From Acutalibacteraceae bacterium (GTDB taxonomy: Bacteria; Bacillota; Clostridia; Oscillospirales; Acutalibacteraceae), in NCBI GenBank assembly GCA_045532945.1, contig JAZSGZ010000013.1, positions 41,900 to 105,899 on the forward strand: a stretch of DNA of 64,000 bases, in the 5' to 3' direction. Of this stretch, positions 14,032 through 28,533 are shown in pieces; position 1 is the first letter of the stretch, and each line of letters opens with the position of its first letter. The notes under the pieces were generated by a model. The model was not told where the DNA came from. It searched no databases and saw nothing but the letters and a program-made list of their open reading frames with translations. The translations under genes were made by a program, and so were the position numbers.

Positions 14032-14050
14032 AAAATCATCTAAAACTAAC

Positions 14051-14089: not shown

Positions 14090-14124
14090 CATAGTGGATG
14101 GGCTAATAAGTATACAGTGAAGAA

Positions 14125-14159
14125 GGTAATAACAGAAGATGAATACCAAAGTTATTACC
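14125..14159 (-). terminator. terminator hairpin for the - strand ATPase operon
   Basis: 9-bp stem ggtaataac / gttattacc, 6 nt beyond the stop of the 14165-14797 gene. Confidence 0.5.
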
Positions 14160-14164
14160 TAAGA

Positions 14165-14797: not shown

Positions 14798-14893
14798 TTT
14801 ATACCTTCTTTTGAATTTATTACTACAAATGACATTGACCTAAAGTCTATGTCATTTGTAGTTTATTCTTTTTGGTTTTATTATAAGTTTATA

Positions 14894-16987
14894 TTACGAA
14901 ACCTTTATTGTAGCTAATTCTTTATCACACTCATCAATAACAAATTGTGGTATGGTATCATATTCTCTTGGATTTAGTTGCCACACATAATCGTTTCCAA
15001 CATGGTATGTTTCGTTTACAAATTTTTTAACAACAGCATTTGGACTGTTTTCGTTATGTATAACTCTATATATTTGTAACTTTTCATAATTACTTGAGGC
15101 AGCATTATAAAGTTCAAGCAAGAAATTAATGTCCATAACTTTTTTGTGCTCAATAAAATAATCAAACCCAGGAATTGATTCACGAACTAAAATTTGTGCA
15201 GATGAAAACTCTTCATCAGTCATCGGTCTATCTTCTAAACTATTCCTTACATGTGGATAAGGATCTCTGTGCAAAAGACATGATGTCATTTGCCATATTA
15301 AACCTTTTTCATCTTCCACTTCGTATAAACGTCGTAAATAAATTGTTTTTATTATGTTATCAATCTCTAAAGTAAGATTATTTTTTGCAATTTTTTGTAT
15401 AGTGCAAATATTATTACTTTTTATTTCCGTTTCTATTAGTTTTCCGTCCTTAGTTGAGAGGAAACTCGCTTTAGGTGCAGGATTAAATTCACGTTTTTTT
15501 ACTTTCATAACATCAATAACAGTATTAAATTCGTGCGTTAACAATAAGACACTGCGGTTTTTTAGAGAGTTTTGAGATAAAAACAATAAATTTATCAATG
15601 CGAATTTTTTATTTCCATCAAAAGATGATATTGGATCATCAAGTATAATTAAGTCAGTATTATCCTTCTGCACAGTAAAAGCAAATAATGCTAAGGCTAA
15701 TGCATTCTTTTCACCGTAACTTAGATGCCTATTTATCGTTGTTAGTTCCAAATCAACATTTGCAGGTTTTAATATCATCCTATAATCACGATTGGTCTCT
15801 TCGATTATGTCTACGATATAATTATAGCCAGCACCGCGCAAAAACTCATTTATTGTGGCTTTATTGGCTTCAATAGTTCGTGCAATTAAAATGTTTTGCT
15901 GATTCACTTCACCTTGTAGTTTGCTTGCTAATCCTATTACTGTTTTTAAAGAACTATTTATAATATTTATTTTTTCCTCTGTTTTATTAGAAAACAAAAA
16001 TGGGAAATATGACAAATCAATCAAGAAACCATTCAATTCATCTGCTATTTTATCAACACTTTTAAGAGAATTATAATTTATGTTCCTAAGTCGCAAAAGA
16101 TTATTTAATAAATCCTTTACTTGGTTTTTAACTCTAACAAGGTATTCTTTTTGTTGCGAACTAATTGAAGAAACATTGTCCCTTATTTCTTGTATTTTAG
16201 TTGCTGTTGATTCAGAAAAGTAGGGGATAAGTTTTTCTAATAAAACCAAGACAGAATTAAGGTGTTCGATATCTTTTGATTTGTACTCCTCTGTTATTTT
16301 TAAAATTGTGTCCTTAGTGGTTGAAATGCTTCCAGAACAATATGGGCATTGATCTTCCATTTCCAAAAAATCTTTACCTGTTAATTGCCATTTTAACCAA
16401 GAAACATTTTTTCCACCTTCGCTATGTCTTAAATATGTACTGAATTTTTCCAGACCAGAAGGAATATGTTTGAGTTTGTTTCCCTTACTAATGGCTTTTG
16501 ATATAACACTATTGCTTGCTAATGTATCTGATTTTCCAAAACCAGATACGAACTGAGAGAATGCATCAATAAGTTCATTTAATTCTGGATGAGATGTGAA
16601 AGCAGTTGATACTTCTTCAAGTAGTCTTTCTATTTCTTTCATATGCTCATCATATTTAGGCGTTTTTACAAATATTGAAAAACTATCTTCTATAAGTTCA
16701 TCTTCTTTAAAAATATGACGATTTATATATTCCTCATTAAAAATAGAAACAGAACGAATTCCTTCTAAGCCACTTACATTGGGTAATGAAGCAGATGAAT
16801 TGCCAATGTTTGAATAAGGAATTAATTCTTCTTTTAAATTGTCATCATTATTAACAAAGGCTTCAATAACCTTAGAAATAGTTGATTTACCGGTTCCATT
16901 AACACCATATTTGATGTTTAAACAACCTTCGGCAATTTCAACTTGTCCGTTAGTTATGTTATTACAGTTTGTGAAATTAAGTATCAT
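14894..16987 (-). CDS. AAA_13-type ABC/SMC-like ATPase with CxxC zinc-hook-like insert (RloC/PrrC-like candidate defence ATPase)
   Basis: Walker A GVNGTGKST. CPYC at about residue 214 in a predicted coiled-coil insert. ABC signature LSYGEKNAL. Walker B LIILDDPISSFD. C-terminal domain contains RRLYE...LLHRDPYPH. Confidence 0.65.
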   Translation of the reverse strand: MILNFTNCNNITNGQVEIAEGCLNIKYGVNGTGKSTISKVIEAFVNNDDNLKEELIPYSNIGNSSASLPNVSGLEGIRSVSIFNEEYINRHIFKEDELIEDSFSIFVKTPKYDEHMKEIERLLEEVSTAFTSHPELNELIDAFSQFVSGFGKSDTLASNSVISKAISKGNKLKHIPSGLEKFSTYLRHSEGGKNVSWLKWQLTGKDFLEMEDQCPYCSGSISTTKDTILKITEEYKSKDIEHLNSVLVLLEKLIPYFSESTATKIQEIRDNVSSISSQQKEYLVRVKNQVKDLLNNLLRLRNINYNSLKSVDKIADELNGFLIDLSYFPFLFSNKTEEKINIINSSLKTVIGLASKLQGEVNQQNILIARTIEANKATINEFLRGAGYNYIVDIIEETNRDYRMILKPANVDLELTTINRHLSYGEKNALALALFAFTVQKDNTDLIILDDPISSFDGNKKFALINLLFLSQNSLKNRSVLLLTHEFNTVIDVMKVKKREFNPAPKASFLSTKDGKLIETEIKSNNICTIQKIAKNNLTLEIDNIIKTIYLRRLYEVEDEKGLIWQMTSCLLHRDPYPHVRNSLEDRPMTDEEFSSAQILVRESIPGFDYFIEHKKVMDINFLLELYNAASSNYEKLQIYRVIHNENSPNAVVKKFVNETYHVGNDYVWQLNPREYDTIPQFVIDECDKELATIKVS

Positions 16988-17030
16988 TTTTTAACATCCT
17001 TTCAAATGTTGTTTTAGTAAAGAGCGTTCT

Positions 17031-17059
17031 TTTAAAGGATAACTATTTGTTATCTCTTA
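17031..17059 (+). repeat. 29-bp dyad-symmetric site, copy 1 (candidate tyrosine-recombinase core site)
   Basis: tttaaaggataactatttgttatctctta is the exact reverse complement of 20682-20710. Internal arms gataac / gttatc flank the asymmetric spacer tattt. Confidence 0.85.
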
Positions 17060-17074
17060 AAAGGGTTGAAAAAC

Positions 17075-18319
17075 ATGTATAATCAAAAAATAGAAAACGC
17101 AGTAAATTTAATTAACGATTTTTATACTTACCATGAGTGCACAATACCATTATGTGCTGCTGAAAATATAATTTCACCTTTTTGCAAAATACCTTTAAAT
17201 GGTAATTTCCAAGAAAGATATATTATGGGGGGGACAACACACTATGACATTAATAACAATTTTATAGGTAGTCAATATTTGTTACCAATCTACAAATCAA
17301 TTGAAGATTGTTGCAAGGAGTTGTTTAATGCAAATTATGTTGATGCAAAAACGCTATCAGGAATGAACTGTGTTACCACCTTATTAATGAGTTTAACTCA
17401 AATTGGTGATAAAATAGTATTGCTTGAAGAAGATGCAGGTGGACATCCATCTGTAATTGAAATATGCAAGAGGCTTGGTTTAAATATAATATATACACCT
17501 TTTGATTATGATAATTACACAATAGATTACCAACAATTAAATTCTCTTATCGCAAAAGAAAAGCCCAATTATTTGTGTTTAGCACCATCTGATATCATTA
17601 TCCCAGTTTCAATTGAAAAAATTGAATTAAGTCAAACGATATTGCTGTATGATGTCAGTCAACTTTTAGGTTTAATTGCCGGAAATATTATAGAAAACCC
17701 TTTAGAAATTAACCCAAACATAATAATATTTGGTGGTACACATAAGACCCTGCCAGGTCCTACTCACGGACTTATAATGACCAATTCTGTTAATTTAGCA
17801 GAGGTTCTTGAAGAAAGAGTTAGTCCTGAATTCATAAGGAACACTCAAATGAATCAAGTTTTAAGCCTTCTTTTCACATTAATTGAGTTTAATGATTTTG
17901 GAAAATCATATATGGAGAAAATAGTAACAGTGGCCAATGACCTCGGTAAATTGCTAGAAAAACGCTCTTTCAATGTAGCAAAAACTGAGGAGAAATATAG
18001 TAATACACACCAAGTATTTATTAAATGTTCAAAAGAGGAAATGAACACGATATACGATAACGCAATTTTAACAGGAGTTACCCTAAATAAGAAGGAACGC
18101 AAGTTATTCGGTGGTTACGGAATAAGACTTGGAGTACAAGAAATAGCCCGATATGGTTGGAATCATAACGATTTAGAAATCATTGCCGATATTCTATCTT
18201 TATTAAGAACGGAAAACTTTGATACAAAAGCATTTAAACAATTTTCAAGAAAATTATCTCCCAAATGCATAGATTTCACATATAAGGATTCTCTTGGAGA
18301 AATTTTACATCATAAATAA
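17075..18319 (+). CDS. divergent serine hydroxymethyltransferase-like PLP-dependent enzyme
   Basis: PLCAAENIISPF compares with SHMT ELIASENF. GGTHKTLPGPTHGLI compares with SHMT TTHKTLRGPRGG (PLP lysine). About 415 aa, as for GlyA, but otherwise highly diverged. Confidence 0.6.
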   Translation: MYNQKIENAVNLINDFYTYHECTIPLCAAENIISPFCKIPLNGNFQERYIMGGTTHYDINNNFIGSQYLLPIYKSIEDCCKELFNANYVDAKTLSGMNCVTTLLMSLTQIGDKIVLLEEDAGGHPSVIEICKRLGLNIIYTPFDYDNYTIDYQQLNSLIAKEKPNYLCLAPSDIIIPVSIEKIELSQTILLYDVSQLLGLIAGNIIENPLEINPNIIIFGGTHKTLPGPTHGLIMTNSVNLAEVLEERVSPEFIRNTQMNQVLSLLFTLIEFNDFGKSYMEKIVTVANDLGKLLEKRSFNVAKTEEKYSNTHQVFIKCSKEEMNTIYDNAILTGVTLNKKERKLFGGYGIRLGVQEIARYGWNHNDLEIIADILSLLRTENFDTKAFKQFSRKLSPKCIDFTYKDSLGEILHHK

Positions 18320-20649
18320 CTGTAGGCACAAAGGGTTAAATGTTTCTGCTTTAAAAGCAATTGCATTTTTTTCAAGACCATTATGCTCAAGATATGACAA
18401 CATTTCTTCGTCAATAGGCTCTCTTTTTAATATTGTTAAAATTAAATTGGCTAGCATTTCATTAATGGTTAAATTGTGTTCTCTGGAAATTTTAATGGTT
18501 TTAATCAAAAGATTAATTTGCTCATTTTTGCAATTGTTATATATAAATTTAATAGCATCATACTCAGTTAAGATAATTCCTATATAAGACATAGTTTCTA
18601 AGTTTTTATCGCCATTTTTGTGAGAAAAATCTATTGCCTTACAATAATTATCTATCGCTTTATTGTGTTCTTGCATAAAACGATAGTATTCTCCTAACTC
18701 AAAATACATTGTATATATTAATCTTTTTTTTAGTTTTTCGTATCCAAGGAAAGCTTGTTCTAGTTGACCTTTTGCTTGTGTAGGAATATTTCCAGGGGTA
18801 CTATTGGAAATAAGGTATCTTGTATGATTCCTATAATATAATAATTTCGCGGCATTATCATTGTTCTTATTAATTAGAGCAAGAGTTTCTGTAAACATCT
18901 CTTCCAAGTTTTGATATCTTGTTTCTTTAGCAAAAAGATGTGGGTTAGACATATAAATAATGGTTAATTCCAAGTTAATTGTAAGTATTAATTTGGAAGA
19001 GTTTAAACTATTCGCTATTTCTAAAGCTCTGAAATAATAAATAATCGCATCTGAATAACACCCTATGTGTCTAAATGAGTGTGCGATTTTCATATCTATT
19101 GTCATTTCGAAATTTCTATCACAATTACTGGTTCCATTGATTTTGGATAGTATTATTTGAAACCAATATATTGCAGTATCATACATGCTTTGTAAATGAA
19201 ATAAATCAGCTAATTGAATGGCTAAATCTAATTGACCCATTTCAACAGCATAAGATATTAATATCCCTTCATTATCAAAAAATCTTTTTGCCGTAGGATA
19301 ATCACCTACACTTAATAATGCTAATATAAACCCATGTGCTATTTTATAATACATGTCATCTTTTATATTTTGATTACCATCTCGAAAGTAATGATTCCCA
19401 AAAGATATCAAAAACATATATTGTTCTTTCTGTATTGACTCATCTATACATTTGATGATTAAATTTTTATATGATGACAGATCCCTTCTCTTTAATAAAA
19501 CAGAATAGATGGAACAACTTTGTATATTTTTTCCCTTTTCATAAAAAAACAACAACCTTTTAATATCTTCATAATAAGAGAATTGAACAATGTTGTAAGT
19601 TATGTAGTCTCTTATAATATCATGCATTTTGATTGTTTTTTTGAATTCATTATATTTTATAAGAGAATACGAATTTATTTTTTTTAAAACTCTCATATTT
19701 GTATTAATTCTATTATCAAAGTTTGTTAGGAATGATACTTCAATTTCGGTATTAACCAAACTTAACAGCGCAATGTAAACTATAACCAAAGCTAAATTTG
19801 AATCTTCTCTTTTTAGATCATAAAATATTTTATCAATGTATTCATTATAAAATTCTCTATTGCAATGATCATCGTTTGAAATCATTAAATCAACCATTAT
19901 TGGTAAACCATTAGAACCTTCACATATTTCCTTTAGTACTTCAGGAGAAAGTTTCTTTTGACATTTTTTCGCGTACTCGTCTATGTCATCTACTTTAAAC
20001 TCTATTATTTCTATCTTCGGTTTATCATTACCTGATTTTGGAAGTGATAGTTTTTCTATAGAACCTAAAACAAAAACAAATTTTAAAGAGTAAGGTTGTA
20101 CATTTTTAATTAAATCTTCCACTGCGTTTTCGGTACATTTATTTGTAATGTTATCTAAAACAATTATAATCTTTTTATAAAAAAAAGAAGTTCTTAACAT
20201 TGTCTTTATTGCATTGTCAAGATTTTTGCTTTTTCCATTAGACAATATTTCGACAAGTTTATTAGTTAAAATATCATCACCTTCAATATTATTTACTTCA
20301 TAATAAATAACTTTTGTTCTTAATCTATCTATATAACTATAAGTCTTCTTTAGTTTTTTTAGTTCGGAACTTTTAATGGATATTTTATTGTTGATAAAAT
20401 CAGATACATACTTTAGAAAATAAGTTTTTCCTACACCTTTTTCCCATACACATTTATTATCTTTTTATCAGATTTGATCATTTGTATAAGAGTGATAATT
20501 TGATAATTCCTATCCGTGAATTTCTCATGTTCTACAAGTTGTCTTTTAGTTGTTTTAACAATGAATTTGCTAATAATCCCCAAAATAGTCAATACAGAAA
20601 CAACGCATGCTAATATTTTATAAACTGTATCTATGGAATTGATTTGCAT
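18305..20649 (-). pseudogene. membrane-anchored STAND-like P-loop NTPase with C-terminal TPR array; frameshifted within the Walker A motif
   Basis: The 87-aa ORF (TM helix, ends ...INVYGKKV*) and the 646-aa ORF frame (open from 20464, reads GVGKTYFL...) join into GKKGVGKT if one base is added at the A5 run (T5 on + strand, 20438-20442). Walker B IIIVLDN. Multiple TPR-like repeats. Alternative starts at 20667 and 20694. Confidence 0.65.
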
Positions 20650-20681
20650 GTTACAACCCTCTTTCATAAAATCCAATACTG

Positions 20682-20710
20682 TAAGAGATAACAAATAGTT
20701 ATCCTTTAAA
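20682..20710 (-). repeat. 29-bp dyad-symmetric site, copy 2 (inverted)
   Basis: taagagataacaaatagttatcctttaaa, a perfect inverted copy of 17031-17059. Confidence 0.85.
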
Positions 20711-20780
20711 TTTTATTTATGTACACTCGACAAGACAAGGTTTTTCCGTCATAATTACATAAAAAACGGAGGTTTTGTCA

Positions 20781-21683
20781 GTGAGTTTACAATCTGAAAT
20801 TAACAACTATATTGCAGTTTGCGAAAATCTCAAAGGTTTAAGTAAACTGACAATAAAGGCATATAAGATTGATTTAAAACAATATCAAGATTATGCCAAT
20901 GATTTAGACTGGCTTTCTAAAGAGTGTATGACCACATACATCGACCATTTATATAAAGCTTACAGTCCTAAAAGTGCTAAAAGAAAAATAGCATGTCTAA
21001 AAGCATTTTATAGATATCTGGAAATGGAAGACATCATAGAATACAATCCATTTCACAAAATAAAAATCAAATATAAAGAACCAATTGTATTGCCAAAGAC
21101 CATTTCATTAAACGATATAAAGAATATATTGATTTTTTCGTATAATCAAAAAGAAAACAGTAAAACAGACATTCAAAAAGAAACAAGATTACGGGATGTA
21201 TTAATTTTAGAAATGTTATTTTCAACGGGAATGCGTGTATCTGAAATTTCACACTTATCTGTTGATGATATCAATTTGATTGACGGTACAATTCGTATAT
21301 TTGGTAAAGGGTCAAAGGAAAGAATAATGTGTCTTACAAATGAATCTGTTCTCGAACTCTTAAGTGAATATATAAACACTCAAAATAAAACATCAAGCTA
21401 TATGTTTACAAACCGTTTAGGAAACAGGTTGTCCGAACAGTCAATAAGAAACATGGTAAACCACTATGCCTGCGCAGCCGGTGTAACGCAACACATAACG
21501 CCTCATATGTTCCGTCACACCTTTGCCACGGCTCTGCATGATGAAGATGTAGATATTAGGTATATTCAACAACTGCTTGGCCACAGTTCAATTTCAACAA
21601 CCCAAATCTACACTCACATCAGTACAAACAAAATACATAAGCTTCTTGAAGAAAAACACCCAAGAAACAAAATATTAATTTGA
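20781..21683 (+). CDS. XerC/XerD-like tyrosine recombinase
   Basis: C-terminal catalytic region HMFRHTFATAL...LLGHSSISTTQIYTH (R-H-R-Y family). GTG 20781 lies 8 nt after GGAGG; the track start is TTG 20775. Confidence 0.85.
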   Translation: MSLQSEINNYIAVCENLKGLSKLTIKAYKIDLKQYQDYANDLDWLSKECMTTYIDHLYKAYSPKSAKRKIACLKAFYRYLEMEDIIEYNPFHKIKIKYKEPIVLPKTISLNDIKNILIFSYNQKENSKTDIQKETRLRDVLILEMLFSTGMRVSEISHLSVDDINLIDGTIRIFGKGSKERIMCLTNESVLELLSEYINTQNKTSSYMFTNRLGNRLSEQSIRNMVNHYACAAGVTQHITPHMFRHTFATALHDEDVDIRYIQQLLGHSSISTTQIYTHISTNKIHKLLEEKHPRNKILI

Positions 21684-21690
21684 TTTATGA

Positions 21691-21730
21691 ACCTTCTACA
21701 CAATTGTTGTGTGGAAGGTGTTTTTTCTTT
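21691..21730 (+). terminator. rho-independent terminator
   Basis: 12-bp stem accttctacaca / tgtgtggaaggt (one G-U pair) followed by a T-run. Confidence 0.75.
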
Positions 21731-21756
21731 TAAAGGATAATATTTAATTATCTATT
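21728..21756 (+). repeat. degenerate third copy of the dyad site (direct relative to copy 1)
   Basis: tttaaaggataatatttaattatctatta matches copy 1 at about 23/29 positions. The 16-mer ttcttttaaaggataa (21725-21740) is identical to 17027-17042. Confidence 0.6.
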
Positions 21757-21769
21757 AATGAGGTGCAAA

Positions 21770-24451
21770 ATGAAGGTATTAAAAATCAATTCTATCGGAG
21801 GGCTATATCACGAAATGTTTGAACCTGATCCTGAGTTCTTTTGCTCAAAAATCAATGTGTCGAACTGCTTTATTGATGCAAACTCATTTTTTTGGTCAAA
21901 ACATTTTTCTGTATCAAAAATTAATGAACTAATAGATGTGTTATCTTTTAATAAGTCTAACATTTATAGCTTTTGTCCTCAATATAAGGCTGTTTTATCC
22001 AATCGTGAGCTCTTTGTACAAAAAGTAGTTGAAGCACCTAAAAAACTGTGTTATGAAGCTAACACTCCCCAAGAGTTTTTTTCGTGTTTAGAAACTATTT
22101 CGATATTGTGTAAACTATATTCAGATTTTGAATATTTTCCTTTTAACCTAAACATACAAAATGGATTTAATTTAAATGAAAACAATTCATATGAAATTTA
22201 TAACAATTGCCTTAATCCTAAAAAAAATCCATACTATAATTTTGTTGTTGAAGAAATAATCCCTATAATTAAAGAAAATAATCCAGATATATTATTCCTT
22301 TATGGTCAAATGAGTTATTATTTTGCAACTTTATCTTTATTAATTAAGCAATTTAATCCACAAATTCATATTTGTTTATCAAGGCACTCATCGGAATACT
22401 ATTCGATGAACAAAATCATTCCACTTTTAAAGCAAAACAAATATCTTTTCAAAATAATTGACAGTATTATTCTTGACTCATTCGAAGAAACAGAAGGAAA
22501 ATTAATTTCCTCATTGAAGAACAATGAACGCATTGATTGTGTTCCTAATATTTTATTTATCAATGACAGCAAAGAAATAATTGAGACTAACTTCTCTGAA
22601 CCTTGTTTCACAAATGATTATTCAATTTATAAAAGGATGCATAACGAAAAAAACACCAACAAGAAAGTTTATGATATTCATTTTGATCCATATATAAAAT
22701 GTCATTGGGATAAGTGTTCATTTTGTGGTATTAACAAAAAATACCGTAATAGAGATTTGTGTTATTCTGAACAAACTTTCAATAGAAAAGCTACTAGTCT
22801 TAATTTGTTGTCTCAAGAATGCGACTATTTGTGGTTTATAGATGAAGCGTTATCACCAGACAAGTTGAGAAATATAGCTGTTAGTTTTATTAATGCAAAA
22901 ACTGGTTTTAAATGGCAAGCTAGATGTCGAGCGGATTATGGTTTGCTTGAGAATGGTTTGCTTGAGAATGGTCTGCCAGAATTACTAGCTAAATCTGGAT
23001 TAAGAGAACTTCGCATAGGATTAGAATCCGGCTCTTATAAGGTACTTAAACTCATGAATAAATTTGATGAAAATTTTAATTTGAGTTTAATAGAATCTAT
23101 TGTTTCGACATACGAAAAAAATGGAATATCTATACACTGTCCTATGATAATAGGATTCCCACAAGAAGAAGATATCGACCGTCAGTATACTTATGAGTTT
23201 TTGTTAAAGCTTTCAAAGAGCCATCCTTCATTTACATTCAATTTAAATATTCTAAATTTAGATGTAAGTAGTGAACTATATAAAAATTGGGCAAATTATC
23301 AACTTGATAAATTGGAGTATCCTTGTGAGCCACAATATTTTTTGGGAAATTCGATTGCGTGGATTGATAGCCTTAAACATAACAAATTATCAATAGATGT
23401 AAATAATTTTATGCGAGAGGTACTTTTTCCATGGATACCTGCTGATTCCTTAATATCGCCTACTATATTTTATCGGTTATGCGAAACCAGTAGAAACACC
23501 CTTCGATGGAAATCTATAGGTACTTGGTATAAAAGCAAACAATTATTTTCTTCAGATATGAATTTAACATTATCGAATAAAGTTTCGATTAGTCAAAGCG
23601 AAGATAGAGTGTTTTTTTATCAATGGAACTCACATCACTATTTACATGGAAACACCTATCTTTATAATTTGCTTGTTGAATTCAAAATAAGCTCTAAGGT
23701 TTCAAAAGTAATTAATAAATTAAATGGTCTTGATCCTAACGTGTATGTAAAAGAAGAGTTAATTTCATTAATAAACAAATTGTTTGAGTTCGGTTTTTTA
23801 GAAGGAGAGTATATTTTTAGTGATTTAAAAAATCTTGGTGATATAGAAAAGGCATATGACTCTATATATCAAGAGGGAAACCTTATATATAAAATTGAAC
23901 CAGATAGATTATTAATAGATTGGCAAAATATTCTCGTTCCAGGTCAAGCTTTAGAATTAGGTGTAGGCTTGGGAAAAAACATAGATTTTCTTTTAGATAA
24001 AGGTTTTTCTGTAACTGGTGTGGATATTTCATCCGTAGCTATAGAAAAGCTAAATAAAAAGTACCATAGCTCCAATTGTTCTTTTTTTGTAAACAATATA
24101 AATACTTTTGAAATTCCTCGTGAAAAATATTCATTAATTATATGTTCTTTAGTTTTATCATATCTAAACGATACTGAACTCATTCTTTTATCTAATAAGA
24201 TTAAAAATGGTTTGTGTAAAGGAGGATTCTTTTATCTAACTGATTTGTCAGAAAGAGATCCTCTTTCTATAAAGCCAAACAATCAAACAACCGATCATAG
24301 GAATTTTTTTAGTTGTTCAAAAATTCAAAGTTTATTTAAAGAATTGGATATCATTGAGTTGAGCGATGTTTATAGAAAAAATCCGCATAGGATTGGCTGT
24401 GAAAATGCTTTTGGACTTATTAACTATTTAGGTTATAAACCCAAGTCATAA
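21770..24451 (+). CDS. fusion protein: B12-binding-like N-domain, radical SAM core and class I SAM-dependent methyltransferase
   Basis: Cys triad KCHWDKCSFCG has Cx4Cx2C spacing, confirmed from codons at about 22699-22728. C-terminal motif I LELGVGLGKN and LIICSLVLSYL indicate a Rossmann methyltransferase. ATG 21770 follows GAGGTG. Confidence 0.6.
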   Translation: MKVLKINSIGGLYHEMFEPDPEFFCSKINVSNCFIDANSFFWSKHFSVSKINELIDVLSFNKSNIYSFCPQYKAVLSNRELFVQKVVEAPKKLCYEANTPQEFFSCLETISILCKLYSDFEYFPFNLNIQNGFNLNENNSYEIYNNCLNPKKNPYYNFVVEEIIPIIKENNPDILFLYGQMSYYFATLSLLIKQFNPQIHICLSRHSSEYYSMNKIIPLLKQNKYLFKIIDSIILDSFEETEGKLISSLKNNERIDCVPNILFINDSKEIIETNFSEPCFTNDYSIYKRMHNEKNTNKKVYDIHFDPYIKCHWDKCSFCGINKKYRNRDLCYSEQTFNRKATSLNLLSQECDYLWFIDEALSPDKLRNIAVSFINAKTGFKWQARCRADYGLLENGLLENGLPELLAKSGLRELRIGLESGSYKVLKLMNKFDENFNLSLIESIVSTYEKNGISIHCPMIIGFPQEEDIDRQYTYEFLLKLSKSHPSFTFNLNILNLDVSSELYKNWANYQLDKLEYPCEPQYFLGNSIAWIDSLKHNKLSIDVNNFMREVLFPWIPADSLISPTIFYRLCETSRNTLRWKSIGTWYKSKQLFSSDMNLTLSNKVSISQSEDRVFFYQWNSHHYLHGNTYLYNLLVEFKISSKVSKVINKLNGLDPNVYVKEELISLINKLFEFGFLEGEYIFSDLKNLGDIEKAYDSIYQEGNLIYKIEPDRLLIDWQNILVPGQALELGVGLGKNIDFLLDKGFSVTGVDISSVAIEKLNKKYHSSNCSFFVNNINTFEIPREKYSLIICSLVLSYLNDTELILLSNKIKNGLCKGGFFYLTDLSERDPLSIKPNNQTTDHRNFFSCSKIQSLFKELDIIELSDVYRKNPHRIGCENAFGLINYLGYKPKS

Positions 24452-24464
24452 GGAGGTGAATTAA

Positions 24465-24626: not shown

Positions 24627-24646
24627 CACTACCTACCCAAAACTCA

Positions 24647-24677
24647 GGGTGAAAAGGATTATTAAACCTTTTCACCC
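24647..24677. terminator. bidirectional terminator hairpin between convergent genes
   Basis: 11-bp stem gggtgaaaagg / ccttttcaccc. Overlaps the 3' end of the pentapeptide-repeat gene. Confidence 0.65.
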
Positions 24678-26284
24678 GATGAATCGTCATCATTTTCTTC
24701 AACTATTTCAATATAATATTCGCGTAATGGCAATGATTCCTCGTCAGGACTATTTAATTCAATTTTAATGGATTTAATGTTTTCTTTGATTATTGATGGA
24801 ACTAAGAGTTTCTTTTTGGGTTGTTCCTCAAGTTGCTTTTTGCGTTCTTCTAATTTTAAAATTGACATTTCAGTTTCTATCTGTTTACTTTTAATTTTTT
24901 CTTGTAATAAAGCGTTTTCAAGATGTGCTTTTTTTACATTAGCATCTTGTAAAACTTTTTCCGTTCTCGCTGATTGATATTCTTTGTAGACCGTTAAAAG
25001 ATGTTTAACAAATTTTATTGCAGTAGTTGAATAAGCACAAAATTGAATGAAATCTATTATGTATTCATATAGATTAAAAACGGAATCGCTTAAAAAGAAT
25101 TCAAACAACGGAGGTGAATTATGTCTAACACTAAAGTAATAGTTGCTTTGAGGCAAAACTTGTTTGACTGTTGTTTCAAATAATTCTATAAAACATATCC
25201 AACTATTATAATCCTCAGAATTAAAATTTGTATGACAAGTTATTGTCATTTGAGGCATTGAAAAAGGATTATCAATAAGTAATTTTTTGATTTCTAAAAC
25301 TTCATGTAGGTATATCTGATATTCATGATTATTCATTTCCGCTATGTGACTGTTAAATATGATTGCATTATATAATTTTTTTAAGTTTTCTTTTGTAAAG
25401 AAGTAATTTATAGAAGATAATTTGCAAAGATAACGTATGGTTCTAAAGTCTCTTTCTTTAAGAGCTTTATCTAATCCCATAAGAATATAAACCAATGCTT
25501 TTTCTTGATGTCCAAGAAATATATTTATATTAGCAAGTGCAAAAAATTCTTCTTTTTTATATAAATATGGTTGTATAGGTATGAGCAAATCAAAAAATTC
25601 ATTAACTTGAATTTCTTTGCCGGCTGCAGCATATTTTATTGTTACGTTCATGTTATCCTTTAACTCTAGTAACAATCCAAAGGATTTTAAAATTCCCCAA
25701 AAAGGCAAAACAACTCCATTAAATATAGGACTTACAAATGTTGAATATTCCAAATTCCCATGAATTAAATCGCATTGTTCAAAAACACAATTTTTAAACT
25801 GTGCATTTTCAAACGAGCAATGAGCAAATTCTGAACAAACAAATTTGCTTCCTACAAAATAGCCTTCATCAAAAACACTTGCATTAGCAAGAAAATGATT
25901 AAATTCAACGCCTGAAAAGTTTGATTTGTTACATCCACAATTATCAAAAAAACACATGTTTAAAAATTTAGAGTTTGAAAAATCACTACTTGTCATTCCT
26001 GAATCCTTAAAACGAGTTTCATTAAATGTACAGTTAATGATCTTTGAAGAAATACCATTTATTCCATCAAAGTGAACTTTGTTAAATACACTATTATAAA
26101 ATTGAGGTTGCTTAACACACTGACCTTGATAATCTGCTCCAATCACGGAGTCCGCAATATATGCAGATACATAATCATTACCTGAAAAATTACTAGGGTC
26201 TAGACTCTTCATTATATTTTCAGCGTTAATGTATTCAATTTGAGAAAAACCCTCATTGCTATTGAAGAAATCTAAATTACTCAT
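24662..26284 (-). CDS. pentapeptide-repeat protein with helical/coiled-coil C-terminal region and acidic tail
   Basis: Residues about 60-190 are tandem pentapeptides (FNKVHFDGINGISSKIINCTFNETRFKDSGMTSSDFSNSKFLN...FENAQFKNCVFEQCDL). The C-terminus has a KQ/E-rich coiled coil and EENDDDSSGEKV. Confidence 0.75.
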   Translation of the reverse strand: MSNLDFFNSNEGFSQIEYINAENIMKSLDPSNFSGNDYVSAYIADSVIGADYQGQCVKQPQFYNSVFNKVHFDGINGISSKIINCTFNETRFKDSGMTSSDFSNSKFLNMCFFDNCGCNKSNFSGVEFNHFLANASVFDEGYFVGSKFVCSEFAHCSFENAQFKNCVFEQCDLIHGNLEYSTFVSPIFNGVVLPFWGILKSFGLLLELKDNMNVTIKYAAAGKEIQVNEFFDLLIPIQPYLYKKEEFFALANINIFLGHQEKALVYILMGLDKALKERDFRTIRYLCKLSSINYFFTKENLKKLYNAIIFNSHIAEMNNHEYQIYLHEVLEIKKLLIDNPFSMPQMTITCHTNFNSEDYNSWICFIELFETTVKQVLPQSNYYFSVRHNSPPLFEFFLSDSVFNLYEYIIDFIQFCAYSTTAIKFVKHLLTVYKEYQSARTEKVLQDANVKKAHLENALLQEKIKSKQIETEMSILKLEERKKQLEEQPKKKLLVPSIIKENIKSIKIELNSPDEESLPLREYYIEIVEENDDDSSGEKV

Positions 26285-26331
26285 AAAACCTCCATGATAA
26301 TTAAATATTATCCTTTATTTGTTTTTAATTT

Positions 26332-27108
26332 TTACTTATATAGTTTTTCATCGATTAATAATTCACTTTTAAGATCATCATAATTACCGTACAATGATTC
26401 TATTGTGTTGTTATAATACTTTGCGTACCAAATATATTTACTATAAATATTATCCCTGTCTTTTGTTTCTATTAGATTTTTAATAATTGAAGATTTAATT
26501 TCGTTAAGATAATATGGATATTCTTCTGGAACATCTAATTCTTCATGCTGAGATAAAAAATCTAAATATATTTGTTTATCTTCTTCATCTTGTTTTAATA
26601 AACTTCTTAGATATTCTGCTTCTTCTTCACATGTATTAGCATATCCGGGTGATTTTAATCCATTGGCAATAGCTATAGTATCCACAATAATTCTAGGCGT
26701 GATGGCATGATTTTGCTCCATTTCATATGCAGTAATCATAGCAGGACCAAAACAAACATTTCTCTTGTGATACAATAAACCAAAAGTTACGCCACCACGA
26801 ACAAAAATCCCATTAATATTAAGTTGCAAACAAATAAATACTAAATCCATTAACAAGAAAAATAGTCCACCTCTGGTGTCACCAGGATATGATATAACTA
26901 TGCTATCAGAAAATACAGAAACTTCCTTTTTGGTTGTATCATATTGAGCAAGAAAACCATGATAATTTTCATTCCTAACTTCTGATATATAATTCAAAGC
27001 ATTGCTTATAGTTTCAAAATCGCTATTATCTTGTGTTGTTTTTTGCACTAAATCTTTAAACCCTAAAATATCTAAAAATACAATAAATCTATTTTCGTAA
27101 GACTTCAT
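26332..27108 (-). CDS. class III nucleotidyl-cyclase-like protein (stand-alone)
   Basis: Four motifs match the cyclase homology domain: FIVFLDILGFKDLV (FADIVGFT), VFSDSIVISY (IGDAxM), VRGGVTFGLLY (RIGIHTG) and FGPAMITAYEME (GxxVNxAARLE). ATG 27108 follows GGAG; the track N-terminal extension runs into the promoter repeat. Confidence 0.45.
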   Translation of the reverse strand: MKSYENRFIVFLDILGFKDLVQKTTQDNSDFETISNALNYISEVRNENYHGFLAQYDTTKKEVSVFSDSIVISYPGDTRGGLFFLLMDLVFICLQLNINGIFVRGGVTFGLLYHKRNVCFGPAMITAYEMEQNHAITPRIIVDTIAIANGLKSPGYANTCEEEAEYLRSLLKQDEEDKQIYLDFLSQHEELDVPEEYPYYLNEIKSSIIKNLIETKDRDNIYSKYIWYAKYYNNTIESLYGNYDDLKSELLIDEKLYK

Positions 27109-27159
27109 TTCAAATATCTCCTTAAAATTAATACTTACATCAGTGAAGATGTGCAAAAT

Positions 27160-27262
27160 TGTTCTACTTATATATGACAAATTTCGCGAAATACTTCAAA
27201 AAATTTTTGTGATTTTTATCTTTTCTACTTTTTGCACAAAATGATGTTGCGAAAATTGTCGA
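27160..27262 (-). promoter_or_regulatory. conserved promoter-like element, copy A
   Basis: In gene orientation: TTTTGTGCAAAAAGTAGAAA box, A/T tract, TTGAAGTATTT, then GTCATATATAA. Homologous to 28582-28690 and 44965-45044. Confidence 0.6.
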
Positions 27263-27279
27263 AAATTGCTATGTATCAG

Positions 27280-28533
27280 TTAAACTAAAACTGGTTCGGT
27301 GTCTCTTGGTGTGAAATCAACAATTTGTTCAGCAGACTCAAGTTGTGTTATGTTATCCAAATAACTAACGGCGTTAAACATGTTAACAATCCCGTACTTA
27401 ACCGGAATATCAGCAGTTTCACAAGAATTATATAGAATCTGCTTTATTTGTTCATTGTTTAAATTGGGGTATTGAGTTTTTATCATTGCACAAACAGAGG
27501 TTACAAACGGTGCAGCACAGGAGGTTCCTGTAAACTCAACATAATCTCCATCGGCATACGTGGATGGTAGTTTTAGGTTTTCTCCCGGTGCGGCTACTTT
27601 TACCCAGTCACCGAAAGCTGCCTTTTTGTATAATTTCTCTGATTGATTAATTGCAGTAACAGATATAACACCATCACAAGCAGCAGGGTACTGCGGTTGT
27701 GTGCTTTTTACGTTACCTACAGATGCAATGTGTAATGGTTTTGATATCCCGCTATTGAATTTAGCAAACATACCATAACTGCTATTTATAAAATCTACGC
27801 CATCAAGTTCCGCTTGCATTTCAGCCAAATGCAAAATGGATAGCGTTGTTTCATTATCAGTGAAAATTTTATATGATATAAACTTCACATTGGGGAGAGT
27901 GTTTTCCATCAGAACGCTACAGACCCTTGCTCCGTGTCCTGTACTGGACGTAAAAGGACTTTCAGGTTCTTCTGTAAAACAATGTGCTTCTAAAAGTCGA
28001 TGAGCAAAGTCCTCATTTCCCGTTTCAACACCGTCATCGATTATACCTACTACAACATCAGGTAAATCATCAAGGCTTTTGTTTTTCAATATGTATTCAA
28101 ACGCTTCCTTACTTTTGGTGCGTTCATATCCCCAAGAGTGCTGAATTTCAGCTCTGTGAAGTGAAAGTTTAGATGTGTCAGATGAGTGTGTTTTTTCCAG
28201 TTCAATTACAATATCAGGTACAACAAGTTTTATATTAGGATTTTTGGTGTATTTGGTGAAAGCTGAGAAGGCATCAAGGGGAGTAGCATACTGCAAAATG
28301 TGCATATCACCATAGCCTGAAATATGGTCTATTGCTCCATATTTATCAAAAGCTACATCAGCGTAAACAATTAATCGTTTTGATGTGAAATGCTTTTGGA
28401 TAGAATCTTTTTTGTCATTGTTATTGTTGAAACTATAGTAGTTTATAAATTGTAAAACTTCTTTTGAAAAACCTTTTAATTCAGAAGAATGGGGAGTAGT
28501 ATTCTGAAAATTGTTGTTTGCATTTTGAATCAT
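27280..28533 (-). CDS. subtilisin-like S8 serine peptidase without a signal peptide
   Basis: Catalytic triad contexts VVGIIDDGV (Asp), STGHGARVCS (His) and GTSCAAPFVTS (Ser). I9-like prodomain. No N-terminal hydrophobic signal. Confidence 0.8.
   Translation of the reverse strand: MIQNANNNFQNTTPHSSELKGFSKEVLQFINYYSFNNNNDKKDSIQKHFTSKRLIVYADVAFDKYGAIDHISGYGDMHILQYATPLDAFSAFTKYTKNPNIKLVVPDIVIELEKTHSSDTSKLSLHRAEIQHSWGYERTKSKEAFEYILKNKSLDDLPDVVVGIIDDGVETGNEDFAHRLLEAHCFTEEPESPFTSSTGHGARVCSVLMENTLPNVKFISYKIFTDNETTLSILHLAEMQAELDGVDFINSSYGMFAKFNSGISKPLHIASVGNVKSTQPQYPAACDGVISVTAINQSEKLYKKAAFGDWVKVAAPGENLKLPSTYADGDYVEFTGTSCAAPFVTSVCAMIKTQYPNLNNEQIKQILYNSCETADIPVKYGIVNMFNAVSYLDNITQLESAEQIVDFTPRDTEPVLV

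What the first reader, a model, noticed from the sequence alone, without database searches (positions are those of the whole stretch)
17027..21756. Perfect 29-bp dyad-symmetric inverted repeats bracket a 3.6-kb two-gene segment next to a tyrosine recombinase: candidate invertible or excisable cassette
Positions 17031-17059 (tttaaaggataactatttgttatctctta) are the exact reverse complement of 20682-20710. Each copy is itself an imperfect dyad, with 13-nt arms tttaaaggataac / gttatctcttaaa around the asymmetric spacer tattt. That is the layout of tyrosine-recombinase core sites, where the spacer sets the polarity.

A XerC/D-like recombinase gene (20781-21683) sits just outside the right copy. After its terminator lies a third, degenerate copy (21728-21756, about 23/29 identical). 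It shares an exact 16-mer with 17027-17042 and is in direct orientation to copy 1. All three copies end 14-16 nt before a start codon (17075, 20667, 21770).

Recombination between copies 1 and 2 would swap the 5' ends of the convergent SHMT-like and STAND genes between the two flanking promoter regions. Recombination between copies 1 and 3 would excise a circle of about 4.7 kb carrying both genes plus the recombinase. A multi-kb, gene-swapping inverton in a defence-like island would be unusual. The alternative reading is a shared operator or 5'-UTR element for three transcription units.
Basis: partly seen in the sequence, partly recalled or inferred. Interest (0 to 1): 0.85.

Follow-up and report, generated by a model that had tools for sequence, protein, structure and literature searches.

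The report
Two flippable gene cassettes, one recombinase
A Xer-like recombinase gene on a gut Clostridia conjugative element sits between two multi-gene segments that it evidently flips end to end; public assemblies hold such segments in both orientations, and the same arrangement recurs widely with swappable, partly anti-phage, cargo.

Summary
17031-17059 and 20682-20710 are a perfect 29-nt inverted repeat, where none is expected by chance.

The "degenerate third copy" is half of a second perfect 22-nt inverted pair (21731-21752 / 26296-26317). The recombinase gene therefore lies between two invertible segments, A (3.6 kb) and B (4.6 kb).

Inversion is seen directly:
- Segment B is flipped in a MAG contig with a 100% identical recombinase, and the breakpoints lie inside the repeat.
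- A-type segments are flipped between samples in three related loci. Two of them carry the same SHMT-like / NTPase-TPR gene pair as segment A.
- A Logan contig equals segment A exactly, repeat to repeat.

Across 18 site pairs the outer arm TAAAGGATAAY is conserved and the centre varies. The centre is identical within each pair and differs between A and B, so excision between copies 1 and 3 is unlikely.

Cargo changes exactly at the sites and includes Thoeris. I read this as a site-specific inversion platform for promoterless, convergent defence-like cassettes. What inversion does to expression is inferred, not shown. I found no description of it in the paper library.

The parts
17031..17059 (+). 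Site A1, the left core site of invertible segment A. Layout: outer arm TTTAAAGGATAA, centre CTATTTG, inner arm TTATC(TCTTA).
   Evidence: Perfect 29-nt inverted repeat with 20682-20710. The near-identity block shared with MAG contig L178 begins at exactly 17031; the last flank mismatch is at 17030. Logan contig L179 starts at this base.
17075..18319 (+). SHMT-like PLP enzyme gene (414 aa), promoterless and facing site A1.
   Evidence: Pfam SHMT 3.1e-17. NCBIfam scores are below the cut-offs for true SHMT. Homologues are paired convergently with an NTPase-TPR gene and sit next to a tyrosine recombinase in L144/L145, L184-L186 and Akkermansia L182.
18305..20667 (-). Membrane-anchored P-loop NTPase-TPR gene facing site A2. 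In the window it is split into two ORFs (20431-20667 and 18305-20245) by a 1-nt deletion at about 20438.
   Evidence: Frame analysis shows the Walker A motif YGKKGVGKT spanning the frameshift. The A-run is A5 in the window and A6 in L179 and L006, where the ORF is 787 aa. TPR hits. Its 3' end overlaps the SHMT-like gene by 15 nt.
20682..20710 (-). Site A2, the right core site of segment A.
   Evidence: Logan contig L179 ends at this base.
20710..20755 (.). Back-to-back promoter-like hexamers between A2 and the recombinase gene. Minus strand: TTGTCT-17-TAAAAT (20738-20710), reading into segment A. Plus strand: TCGACA-17-CATAAT (20727-20755), reading into the recombinase gene.
   Evidence: Consensus scan; the total number of hits in the region is not above the shuffled expectation. 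The TAAAAT box next to the site is conserved in six loci, but the -35 box is not. This is inference only.
20781..21683 (+). Xer-like tyrosine recombinase (300 aa), the presumed invertase for both segments.
   Evidence: A homologous recombinase lies next to the site pairs in the related loci read, down to 54% identity (L044/L150); similar motifs follow recombinases of 48-53% identity, and one of them, L155, has a repeat pair. The element also carries a large serine recombinase at 43298-44914, a likely integrase for the element itself.
21691..21729 (+). Intrinsic terminator of the recombinase gene, directly abutting site B1.
   Evidence: A 13-bp stem followed by a T-run. It is present at this position in all 10 B modules that follow this recombinase, with compensatory stem changes in L016/L017.
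21731..21752 (+). Site B1, the left core site of invertible segment B (TAAAGGATAATATTTAATTATC).
   Evidence: Perfect 22-nt inverted repeat with 26296-26317. It is the breakpoint of the inversion between the window and L006.
21770..24451 (+). Fusion gene for a radical-SAM-like domain (Pfam match below its cut-off) and a class I SAM methyltransferase (893 aa), facing B1 in the window.
   Evidence: In L006 it faces B2 instead.
24662..26284 (-). Pentapeptide-repeat protein gene (540 aa), facing B2 in the window.
   Evidence: Pentapeptide genes recur in B-type cassettes of L005, L008 and L012.
26296..26317 (-).
26332..27290 (-). A fixed 282-aa gene that reads into B2 with no terminator, together with the promoter-like repeated element upstream of it (27176-27290).
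   Evidence: Co-directional gene ending 14 nt before the site. The element is repeated at 28534-28720 and at about 45001-45045, and it forms the B2 outer flank in L008, L011 and L014.

Best explanation
The region is a site-specific DNA inversion system.

The recombinase and its sites. A Xer-like tyrosine recombinase (20781-21683) recognises asymmetric, dif-like core sites. Each site has a conserved outer arm TAAAGGATAAY, a variable 5-7-nt centre, and a short inner arm RTTATC. The recombinase gene lies between two independent pairs of inverted sites. Pair A (17031-17059 / 20682-20710, centre CTATTTG) brackets a 3.6-kb cassette. Pair B (21731-21752 / 26296-26317, centre TATTTAA) brackets a 4.6-kb cassette. 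The centres are identical within a pair and differ between pairs. Each cassette can therefore only flip. It cannot be excised or recombine with the other.

The cassettes. Each consists of promoterless gene sets that converge, often with overlapping 3' ends. Their start codons lie 11-16 nt inside the sites, so transcription must come from the fixed flanks.

Effect on expression (inferred). For segment B the flanks are clearly unequal. B1 follows the recombinase terminator. B2 is fed by a co-directional gene with a promoter-like element upstream. Flipping would exchange which gene set sits in the well-transcribed position and which sits in the insulated position, where it is read in antisense.

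Exchangeable cargo (inferred). The same scaffold in related elements holds entirely different cargo, delimited exactly at the sites. The sites therefore also appear to serve as docking points for cassette exchange.

Shown here: the sites, the inversions and the modular cargo. Inferred: that this recombinase catalyses the reaction, the expression outcome, and the exchange mechanism.
For: 1. The repeats are perfect and non-random.

2. Both orientations are seen, with breakpoints inside the repeats:
- Window against L006 for segment B. The recombinase is 100% identical and the cassette 99.5% identical.
- L001 against L002. A 2.68-kb cassette is 100% identical and inverted, and the flanks are 99.9-100% collinear.
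- L144 against L145. A 3.7-kb SHMT-like/NTPase-TPR cassette is inverted.
- L184 against L186. The same cassette type is inverted relative to its flanks.

3. Logan contig L179 equals window 17031-20710 exactly and begins and ends with the 29-nt repeat. Several other contigs stop at the sites. About 36 of 120 SHMT-like homologue clusters have a longest contig of cassette size.

4. Site logo from 36 sites in 18 pairs. In the outer arm, A at -3 is 36/36 and G at -1 is 35/36; neither position was imposed by the search pattern. There are 13 different centres. The conserved arm is always on the outside.

5. The GATAAY-N5-RTTATC core next to a tyrosine recombinase also appears in Akkermansia (L182). 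It follows recombinases of 48-54% identity in L150, L152, L155 and L158.

6. Flank asymmetry of B. In all 10 B modules that follow this recombinase, a terminator sits at B1 and a co-directional upstream gene at B2.

7. Modular cargo. The same site carries different cargo in different loci, and homology breaks at the inner edge of the site. The block that is 99.4-100% identical between the window and the MAG starts at base 17031, while the flanking backbone is 79-97% identical.

8. A large serine recombinase elsewhere in the element (43298-44914) can account for integration of the element.
Against: - The window's own segment A was not found flipped in a contiguous contig. The evidence for it is by homology (L144/L145, L184/L186) and from the contig L179 that ends at both repeats. 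Strain mixture could partly explain L179, because position 17030 differs between two known backbones.
- No read-level data were available.
- No experiment links this recombinase to the reaction.
- The expression outcome is inferred. Promoter-like hits in the region are no more frequent than in shuffled sequence. The flanks of A modules carry divergent genes and show no clear promoter/terminator asymmetry.
- One B cassette (L011/L014) is a Thoeris type I pair, ThsA and ThsB. By established knowledge these two work together, which argues against strict either/or expression.
Confidence: 0.82

Rival explanations
1. The repeats are shared operators or 5'-UTR elements (a protein-binding palindrome or an RNA hairpin) that co-regulate four transcription units. 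No DNA rearrangement takes place.
For: All four copies lie 11-16 nt upstream of start codons. The core is a dyad, and C-G changes to T-A on both half-sites between pairs A and B.
Against: Four independent pairs of near-identical loci differ by a clean inversion whose breakpoints lie inside the repeats. The dyad is not kept in L005, where the core is GATAAC...ATTATC. The centre varies freely between loci but is identical within each pair. That is the signature of a recombination overlap region, not of an operator. A regulatory side-role for the bound recombinase is not excluded.
Confidence: 0.03
2. The sites mediate excision or integration of circular cassettes, integron-like or as a small mobile element. 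An example would be recombination between the directly repeated copies 1 and 3 to release a 4.7-kb circle.
For: Copies 1 and 3 are in direct orientation and share the outer arm. Cargo between the sites differs among related elements. L001 retains only a solo B1-like site with a mutated arm.
Against: The centres of A (CTATTTG) and B (TATTTAA) differ at 5 of 7 positions. By established knowledge of tyrosine recombinases, strand exchange needs identical overlap regions. Sites with identical centres are always inverted, never direct, in the loci examined. In every locus the recombinase gene keeps its place and orientation between the pairs. The integron-integrase model scores far below its cut-off, 103.7 against 265 bits.
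Confidence: 0.05
3. Inversion is real but incidental. The main role of the paired inverted sites is cassette capture and exchange between co-resident elements, by double site-specific crossover as in engineered recombinase-mediated cassette exchange. Inverted sites merely protect the cargo from deletion.
For: The A site GGATAACTAATAATTATC carries at least five unrelated cargos (L010, L011, L012, L015, L144). The B site with centre TTCTCAA carries two (L008; L011/L014). Homology breaks exactly at the sites. The near-identical module shared by diverged backbones starts at base 17031. A Thoeris pair, which needs both genes, sits in a cassette.
Against: The right boundary of the shared block (about 27020-27160) is not at a site, so homologous recombination contributed there. 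Frequent, recent flips between otherwise identical sequences suggest that inversion itself is active and maintained. So does the conserved terminator/operon asymmetry at B. This rival is compatible with the best explanation and does not exclude it.
Confidence: 0.25
4. The orientation differences are assembly artefacts, or they result from general (RecA-dependent) recombination between short inverted repeats.
For: All the evidence comes from assemblies, mostly of metagenomes. Inverted repeats can confuse assemblers.
Against: The repeats are 20-29 nt long. That is shorter than the k = 141 implied by the MEGAHIT-style contig names (k141_...) and shorter than typical reads, so they should not create ambiguous paths. 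It is also far too short for efficient RecA recombination (established knowledge). The same motif, always beside a homologous recombinase, recurs in different phyla. Flips are seen in four independent locus pairs from different assemblers.
Confidence: 0.03

Closest known systems
Mycoplasma vpma/vsp (Xer1, Mbr) and vsa (HvsR) gene-switching inversions
   Same: A Xer-like tyrosine recombinase is encoded in the locus. Recombination sites lie in the 5' untranslated leaders, within 72 nt of the start codons. Gene-sized inversions connect alternative promoterless genes to a fixed promoter (PMC2268961).
   Different: The cargo here is not a paralogous family of surface lipoproteins. It is unrelated cytoplasmic enzyme/NTPase pairs, including known anti-phage systems. 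There are two heterospecific site pairs instead of one shared site type. Cassettes are convergent and often overlap at their 3' ends. The cargo is exchangeable and carried on conjugative elements. A single unique promoter is not demonstrated.
Promoter invertons and intragenic invertons of gut bacteria (Bacteroides Mpi/Tsr, C. difficile RecV; PhaseFinder-type surveys)
   Same: Short inverted repeats plus a nearby recombinase, reversible inversion, heterogeneity within gut populations (abstracts listed; otherwise from my own knowledge).
   Different: In those systems the invertible DNA is usually a promoter of a few hundred bp or part of one gene. Here whole multi-gene segments of 2-7 kb flip while the regulatory signals stay fixed.
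Type I R-M hsdS 'epigenetic invertons' and gene-altering programmed inversions (PsrA/CreX; PMC7672463, PMC9881135)
   Same: Tyrosine recombinase next to inverted repeats, defence-related cargo, and phase variation by inversion. One such hsdS locus, with its own recombinase, lies right beside the SHMT/NTPase cassette in L184-L186.
   Different: Those repeats lie inside coding sequences and reshuffle protein domains. Here the repeats lie upstream of start codons and the proteins are unchanged. The NAR 2023 survey does not mention this gene pair: 'hydroxymethyltransferase' occurs 0 times in its text.
Integrons (IntI, attI/attC), including chromosomal integrons that store defence cassettes (bioRxiv 10.1101/2024.07.02.601686, listed)
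   Same: A tyrosine recombinase beside promoterless, exchangeable cassettes that depend on external transcription. The cargo is rich in defence genes.
   Different: There is no integron-type integrase (score below cut-off). There are no attC hairpin sites at cassette 3' ends. Cassettes are bounded by identical inverted core sites, hold convergent gene sets, and flip rather than excise.
Engineered Cre/lox or Flp/FRT systems with heterospecific or inverted sites (cassette exchange, FLEx switches)
   Same: The logic is the same. Identical spacers recombine and different spacers do not. Inverted sites give inversion without loss. Two such pairs allow independent switches and cassette exchange (from my own knowledge).
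   Different: Those are laboratory designs. This would be a natural counterpart. Heterospecificity and exchange are inferred from sequence, not tested.

Membership tests
Tyrosine (lambda-integrase/Xer-type) site-specific recombinases | C-terminal catalytic domain with the R-K-H-R-H/W-Y residues, plus an N-terminal SAM-like core-binding domain | tested here: met
   Pfam Phage_integrase 1.8e-43 and Phage_int_SAM_1 2.4e-11. R152, K176, H242, R245, H268 and Y277 are invariant in 25 homologues. Best solved relative is XerD, 1a0p.
Housekeeping XerC/XerD chromosome-dimer resolvases | Score at or above the curated equivalog cut-off, and action on a single chromosomal dif site | tested here: not met
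   XerD model 246.9 bits against a cut-off of 329.6; XerC model 245.2 against 335.15. The gene lies in the accessory region of a conjugative element, between four paired sites.
Site-specific DNA inversion switch (inverton in the broad sense) | A pair of inverted repeats bounding the segment | tested here: met
   29-nt and 22-nt perfect inverted pairs.
Site-specific DNA inversion switch (inverton in the broad sense) | Both orientations exist in nature, with breakpoints inside the repeats | tested here: met
   Segment B: window against L006. A-type segments: L001/L002, L144/L145, L184/L186. For the window's own segment A there is only indirect evidence, the repeat-to-repeat contig L179.
Site-specific DNA inversion switch (inverton in the broad sense) | Inversion depends on the adjacent recombinase | not testable with these tools
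   Only co-occurrence is available. A homologous recombinase lies beside the site pairs in the related loci read, down to 54% identity, and a tyrosine recombinase does so in another phylum.
Tyrosine-recombinase core site (two binding arms around a 6-8-bp overlap region) | Arms conserved across loci; a central region free to vary between loci but identical between recombining partners | tested here: met
   Logo of 36 sites. The outer arm TAAAGGATAA is nearly invariant, with 13 different centres among 18 pairs. Centres were identical within every pair found; pairs were detected by identity, so solo sites are not informative. The cleavage positions are unknown.
Single-promoter gene-switching loci (Mycoplasma vpma type) | One unique promoter outside the invertible DNA, with the alternative genes otherwise silent | tested here: inconclusive
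   B modules: terminator at B1 and co-directional feeding gene at B2 in all 10 that follow this recombinase. A modules: no clear asymmetry. Promoter scans are not above background. The Thoeris cassette argues against strict silence.
Shufflon (R64 Rci type) | Three or more sites of one specificity, so that several segments invert singly or in groups | tested here: not met
   There are only two sites per specificity. The A and B centres differ at 5 of 7 positions. No A-by-B rearrangement is seen in any locus.
Integron | IntI-type integrase, attI, and attC-bounded co-oriented cassettes that excise as circles | tested here: not met
   Integron integrase models score 103.7 bits against a cut-off of 265 and 74.8 against 435. 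Cassettes are convergent and bounded by inverted identical sites.
Known anti-phage defence systems (cargo of the window's two cassettes) | Match to a PADLOC model of a known or candidate system | tested here: not met
   There is no PADLOC hit for the SHMT-like, NTPase-TPR or pentapeptide proteins. Only the methyltransferase domain hits mad2, at 2.3e-9. Sister cassettes do match: Thoeris ThsA 4.1e-63 and ThsB, PDC-S15, TIR-TM. So does the neighbouring gene 14894-16987, PDC-S06 at 2.5e-240.

The most novel reading that the evidence does not exclude
This is a natural, widespread 'flip-and-swap' platform.

A dedicated Xer-like recombinase and heterospecific inverted core sites give each mobile element two independent two-state switches. 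Each strand of a cassette is a separate promoterless programme. Typically one strand encodes an NTPase-TPR or pentapeptide protein and the other encodes small-molecule enzymes. Orientation decides which strand is read from the single fixed expression site.

The same sites would also let whole cassettes be exchanged between co-resident elements by double site-specific crossover. This would be a natural form of recombinase-mediated cassette exchange, distributing candidate and known anti-phage systems across gut bacteria of several phyla.

The recurrent SHMT-like / NTPase-TPR / recombinase trio would then be a new phase-variable defence system.
Probability: 0.3. Interest if true: 0.9.

Novelty: new variant of a known kind. 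Interest (0 to 1): 0.8.

Why it matters
Phase variation by DNA inversion is well known for promoters, surface proteins and restriction specificity subunits. Here whole multi-gene cassettes, apparently cytoplasmic and defence-like, flip beside a dedicated recombinase.

The architecture is conserved from Clostridia to Akkermansia. It is also modular, with the same sites carrying different cargo.

If the expression model holds, gut bacteria hedge between alternative immune or metabolic programmes with a compact two-state device. The platform would then point to uncharacterised gene pairs as candidate defence systems. Examples are SHMT-like plus NTPase-TPR, ATP-grasp plus NTPase-TPR, and pentapeptide plus PLP or radical-SAM enzymes.

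The heterospecific site pairs and a small single recombinase could also be useful as orthogonal genetic switches.

There is a practical point too. These loci break short-read assemblies at the sites and leave cassette-sized orphan contigs, so they are probably under-reported.

Tried and rejected
- Megablast of 14000-27300 against the plasmid and phage collections found nothing.
- Exact-sequence look-ups of the window's SHMT-like and 646-aa proteins failed. The SHMT-like protein was recovered only through the homologue search, as P0121. The 646-aa ORF is a frameshift fragment.
- The general site pattern scanned against viral contigs gave mostly single, chance matches. Only L044 was real.
- The metagenome scan for the window's exact A core gave four loci. 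Two contigs end at the site and two are unrelated. None is a flipped copy of the window's own cassette.
- A single-protein scan of viral contigs with the recombinase found nothing. An alignment query reached relatives of 46-54% identity.
- I looked for a promoter inside the site itself, with -10 at GATAAY or -35 at TTTAAA. No consistent partner hexamers appeared across the four copies. The consensus promoter scan is not enriched over shuffles.
- I considered strict either/or expression of the two gene sets. I downgraded it because of the convergent Thoeris ThsA/ThsB cassette.
- Six literature searches found no description of this arrangement. The library does not cover most subscription journals.

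Full report
OBSERVATION

Positions 17031-17059 and 20682-20710 are an exact 29-nt inverted repeat. A search allowing 3 mismatches finds only these two copies. None appears in 100 dinucleotide-preserving shuffles.

A relaxed core pattern (AAGGATAAY-NN-TT-N-RTTATC) finds four copies: 17035 (+), 20706 (-), 21733 (+) and 26315 (-). With the third it forms a perfect 22-nt inverted repeat, TAAAGGATAATATTTAATTATC, at 21731-21752 and 26296-26317.

The gene between the two pairs (20781-21683) encodes a tyrosine recombinase with both Pfam domains. The catalytic R, K, H, R, H and Y residues are invariant among 25 homologues. It resembles XerC/XerD but scores below their curated cut-offs. Its nearest solved structure is XerD.

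ANATOMY

Segment A (17031-20710) holds two genes:
- An SHMT-like PLP enzyme gene on the plus strand (17075-18319).
- A convergent gene for a membrane-anchored P-loop NTPase with TPR repeats. Its 3' end overlaps the first gene by 15 nt.

In the window the NTPase gene is split into a 78-aa and a 646-aa ORF. The cause is a 1-nt deletion in an A-run inside the Walker A codons. Two other assemblies have A6 there and an intact 787-aa ORF.

Segment B (21731-26317) holds a fusion gene for a radical-SAM-like domain (Pfam match below its cut-off) and a methyltransferase (plus strand), and a convergent pentapeptide-repeat gene (minus strand).

All four start codons lie 11-16 nt inside a site, each preceded by a ribosome-binding sequence. 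The genes therefore have no room for promoters of their own.

The surroundings are a conjugative element. It carries a MobL relaxase, a Toprim/DUF3991 protein, a coupling protein and a large serine recombinase at 43298-44914. Its accessory region has low G+C. The gene just left of site A1 (14894-16987) matches the PADLOC candidate defence family PDC-S06 over its full length.

DIRECT EVIDENCE FOR INVERSION

(a) Segment B of the window. The contig JAZUSK010000021.1, from an Acutalibacteraceae MAG (L006), carries a 100% identical recombinase. L006 1-1562 aligns with window 20192-21752. L006 1541-6112 aligns with window 26317-21731, inverted, at 99.5% identity. L006 6091-8598 aligns with window 26296-28771. 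The junctions overlap by exactly the 22-nt repeat.

(b) L001 and L002. Two metagenome contigs carry a 94% identical recombinase. Their flanks are collinear at 99.9-100% identity. A 2.68-kb cassette is inverted at 100% identity, bounded by the 22-nt repeat TAAAGGATAACTAATTGTTATC.

(c) L144 and L145 (recombinase 64% identical). Their flanks are 99.98-99.99% identical. A 3.7-kb cassette is inverted at 99.95% identity. Its cargo is an SHMT-like gene (45% identical to the window's) and an NTPase-TPR gene (26% identical). This is the same cassette type as segment A.

(d) L184 and L186, from a gut Clostridium. Here the SHMT-like gene is 68% identical to the window's. The 3.6-kb cassette is inverted relative to its flanks, with breakpoints in AAAGGATAACTATAAATTAT.

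(e) The window's own segment A. A Logan contig from run SRR32209773 (L179, 3,681 bp) equals window 17031-20710 at 99.84% identity. It begins and ends with the 29-nt repeat. From memory, Logan assemblies use k = 31. A 29-nt repeat alone would then not break the graph, so the break at both outer edges suggests two alternative junctions at each end. Strain mixture could explain the left end, because base 17030 differs between two known backbones. It explains the right end less easily.

Other contigs also stop at or near these sites: L010, L138, L139, L146, L147 and L152. About 36 of the 120 best SHMT-like homologue clusters have a longest contig of 3.6-3.8 kb or 4.85-5.15 kb, which is cassette size.

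The repeats (20-29 nt) are shorter than the k = 141 implied by the MEGAHIT-style contig names. Misassembly across them is therefore an unlikely cause.

THE SITE

I compared 36 sites from 18 distinct pairs.
- The outer arm reads T-A-A-A-G-G-A-T-A-A-Y. A at -3 is 36/36 and G at -1 is 35/36, and neither position was imposed by the search pattern.
- The central 5-7 nt vary freely, with 13 different centres.
- The inner arm is only RTTATC, followed by a weak T-rich stretch.
- The conserved arm is always on the outside of the segment.
- In every pair found the two centres are identical. Where one locus has two pairs, their centres differ.

This is the layout of a tyrosine-recombinase core site, with binding arms around an overlap region that must match between partners (established knowledge). 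It resembles dif sites, which have ATAA / TTAT at the inner ends of the arms.

The window's centres are CTATTTG for A and TATTTAA for B. They differ at 5 of 7 positions. No related locus shows such a product. The recombinase gene always has its 5' end toward A2 and its terminator toward B1.

The same core, GATAAC-TATTT-ATTATC, bounds an SHMT-like/NTPase-TPR pair directly after a tyrosine recombinase gene in Akkermansia (L182). [quoted passage not shown] Similar sites follow recombinases of 48-54% identity in IMG/VR contigs.

WHAT INVERSION DOES (INFERRED)

Segment B. The flanks are consistently unequal. In all 10 B modules that follow this recombinase, B1 directly follows the intrinsic terminator of the recombinase gene. 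The terminator stem shows compensatory changes in L016/L017. B2 is preceded by a co-directional gene that ends 2-284 nt away, usually with no terminator.

In the window that gene is the 282-aa ORF (26332-27180). Upstream of it lies a promoter-like element of roughly 100 nt. A second copy lies at 28534-28720 and a partial copy at about 45001-45045. The same element forms the B2 flank itself in L008, L011 and L014.

I therefore read B2 as a well-transcribed position and B1 as an insulated one. In the window the pentapeptide gene occupies B2. In L006 the radical-SAM-like methyltransferase gene does.

Some cassettes are interleaved. In L005, L015 and L142 the order is: site, a gene pointing outward, a gene on the other strand, a gene pointing inward from the far site, site. 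Each strand then reads as one transcription unit entered from outside. Together with the frequent 3' overlaps, this fits transcription of one strand at a time.

Three points weaken the model:
- A modules have divergently transcribed neighbours on both sides, and only weak promoter-like hexamers such as 20738-20710.
- Promoter-like matches are not enriched over shuffles.
- One B cassette (L011/L014) is a convergent Thoeris type I pair: ThsA (SIR2-STALD, 4.1e-63) and ThsB (TIR). These are known to act together, so the 'silent' position cannot be fully silent.

My best reading is that inversion exchanges a high-expression and a low-expression position. It is not an absolute on/off switch.

MODULAR CARGO

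Every cassette examined consists of gene sets that read inward from the two sites. The contents differ widely:
- NTPase-TPR with ATP-grasp enzymes (L010, L012, L015, L142).
- NTPase-TPR with SHMT-like enzymes (window, L011, L144, L184, L182).
- Pentapeptide proteins with PLP or radical-SAM enzymes (window, L005, L008, L012).
- Mrr-STAND-TPR proteins with sugar or carbamoyl transferases (L007, L015).
- Thoeris (L011/L014).
- A TIR-TM-like protein with a small P-loop protein (L017).
- An FRG-domain protein of family PDC-S15 (L001).

Identical sites carry different cargo. The A site GGATAACTAATAATTATC carries at least five. Homology between elements stops exactly at the inner edge of the sites.

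The window and the MAG differ by 3-21% in the backbone. They are 99.4-100% identical from base 17031, the first base of A1, to about 27020. This points to exchange of modules with one boundary at a site. The right boundary is not at a site, so homologous recombination was also involved. Exchange by double site-specific crossover is a plausible inference, but it is untested.

COMPARISON WITH KNOWN SYSTEMS

The closest known mechanism is the Mycoplasma vpma/vsp/vsa type. There a locus-encoded Xer-like recombinase acts on sites in the 5' leaders and places alternative promoterless genes behind a fixed promoter (PMC2268961).

The present system differs in several ways:
- The cargo is unrelated, mostly cytoplasmic, and defence-like.
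- It has two heterospecific pairs around one recombinase.
- The cassettes are convergent and overlap at their 3' ends.
- The cargo is exchangeable.
- It is carried on conjugative elements and occurs in more than one phylum.

It is not an integron, because the integrase model scores below its cut-off and the cassettes flip rather than excise. It is not a multi-site shufflon. It is not an hsdS-type gene-altering inversion, although one of those lies next door in L184-L186.

Six literature searches, and a term search of the 2023 survey of programmed inversions, found no description of it. The library does not cover most subscription journals.

VERDICT

The excision hypothesis is not. The operator alternative is rejected as a sole explanation.

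I classify the finding as a new variant of a known kind of system. Its interest is high, because it is active, widespread, modular and apparently undescribed.

Noticed in passing
window 20431-20445 (A-run at about 20438): The NTPase-TPR gene of segment A carries a 1-nt deletion in a homopolymer (GGGAAAAAGG against GGGAAAAAAGG in L179 and L006), inside the Walker A codons. It splits a 787-aa gene into 78-aa and 646-aa ORFs. This could be a sequencing error, a pseudogene, or slipped-strand phase variation.
   Followed up: yes
window 22938-22967: A perfect 15-nt tandem duplication (ATGGTTTGCTTGAGA twice) in the radical-SAM-like methyltransferase gene adds five residues in frame (GLLEN repeated). 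The extra copy is absent from L006.
   Followed up: partly
window 14894-16987: This AAA_13 ATPase gene matches the PADLOC candidate defence family PDC-S06 over its full length (2.5e-240). Between the window and the MAG contig L178 it is the most diverged stretch (79-88% identity), lying between a 94-97% backbone and the 99-100% cassette block. It is absent at this position in L001.
   Followed up: partly
window 27176-27290, 28534-28720 and about 45001-45045: A promoter-like element of roughly 100 nt (core ...TTTTTGAAGTATTT-N9-TTGTCATATATA...) lies upstream of the 282-aa gene and the S8 peptidase gene. A partial copy lies upstream of an FRG-domain gene. The same element is the outer flank of site B2 in L008, L011 and L014, and it follows the solo site in L001. 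Sigma-70/ECF-type sigma factor genes lie near several related loci.
   Followed up: partly
window 43298-48275: A large serine recombinase (43298-44914) is followed by an FRG-domain gene (45079-45945) and a 762-aa radical-SAM protein gene (45987-48275). These are probably the element's integrase and another defence-like pair near the end of the element. G+C rises from about 30% to about 41% after roughly 52 kb.
   Followed up: no
window 38038-41409: An agr-like quorum-sensing set: a GHKL histidine kinase (38038-39327), a LytTR response regulator (39330-40070), an HTH protein (40122-40538) and AgrB (40819-41409). The same set lies beside a homologous recombinase in L148/L149.
   Followed up: no
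L184-L186 (about 2500-7800 in L184): The SHMT-like/NTPase-TPR cassette lies next to a Type I R-M locus that has its own 331-aa tyrosine recombinase. The hsdS gene arrangements differ between L184, L185 and L186. Two different inversion systems therefore sit side by side.
   Followed up: no
L182/L183 (Akkermansia), 6009-10628: The recombinase stop codon (TGA) lies in the outer arm of the site. The 26-nt inverted repeat contains the start codon and first codons (ATG GAA A) of both cassette genes. Whichever gene faces the recombinase is therefore fused into its transcription unit, 23 nt downstream.
   Followed up: partly
L011, L013, L014, L015 (site A2 region): In these loci a 210-aa membrane-protein gene lies between the recombinase and site A2. 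Its stop codon is the TAA of the site's GGATAA arm. In the window (14165-14797) and in L001, a 210-aa ORF that I did not compare with it lies on the far side of segment A, in divergent orientation.
   Followed up: no
one search hit list; L180, L181: Many SHMT-like homologues are known only from contigs of 3.6-3.8 kb or 4.85-5.15 kb whose two ends are inverted repeats. Short-read assemblies seem to strand these cassettes as orphan contigs. Names given by the sources place homologues in Erysipelotrichales, Lactobacillus, Bacteroidales, Fusobacterium and Akkermansia.
   Followed up: partly
L001 10944-10980: A solo B1-type site with a mutated arm (AAAGTATAATATTTAATTATC) follows the recombinase terminator. 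It has no partner site and no B cassette, and may be a decayed module.
   Followed up: partly
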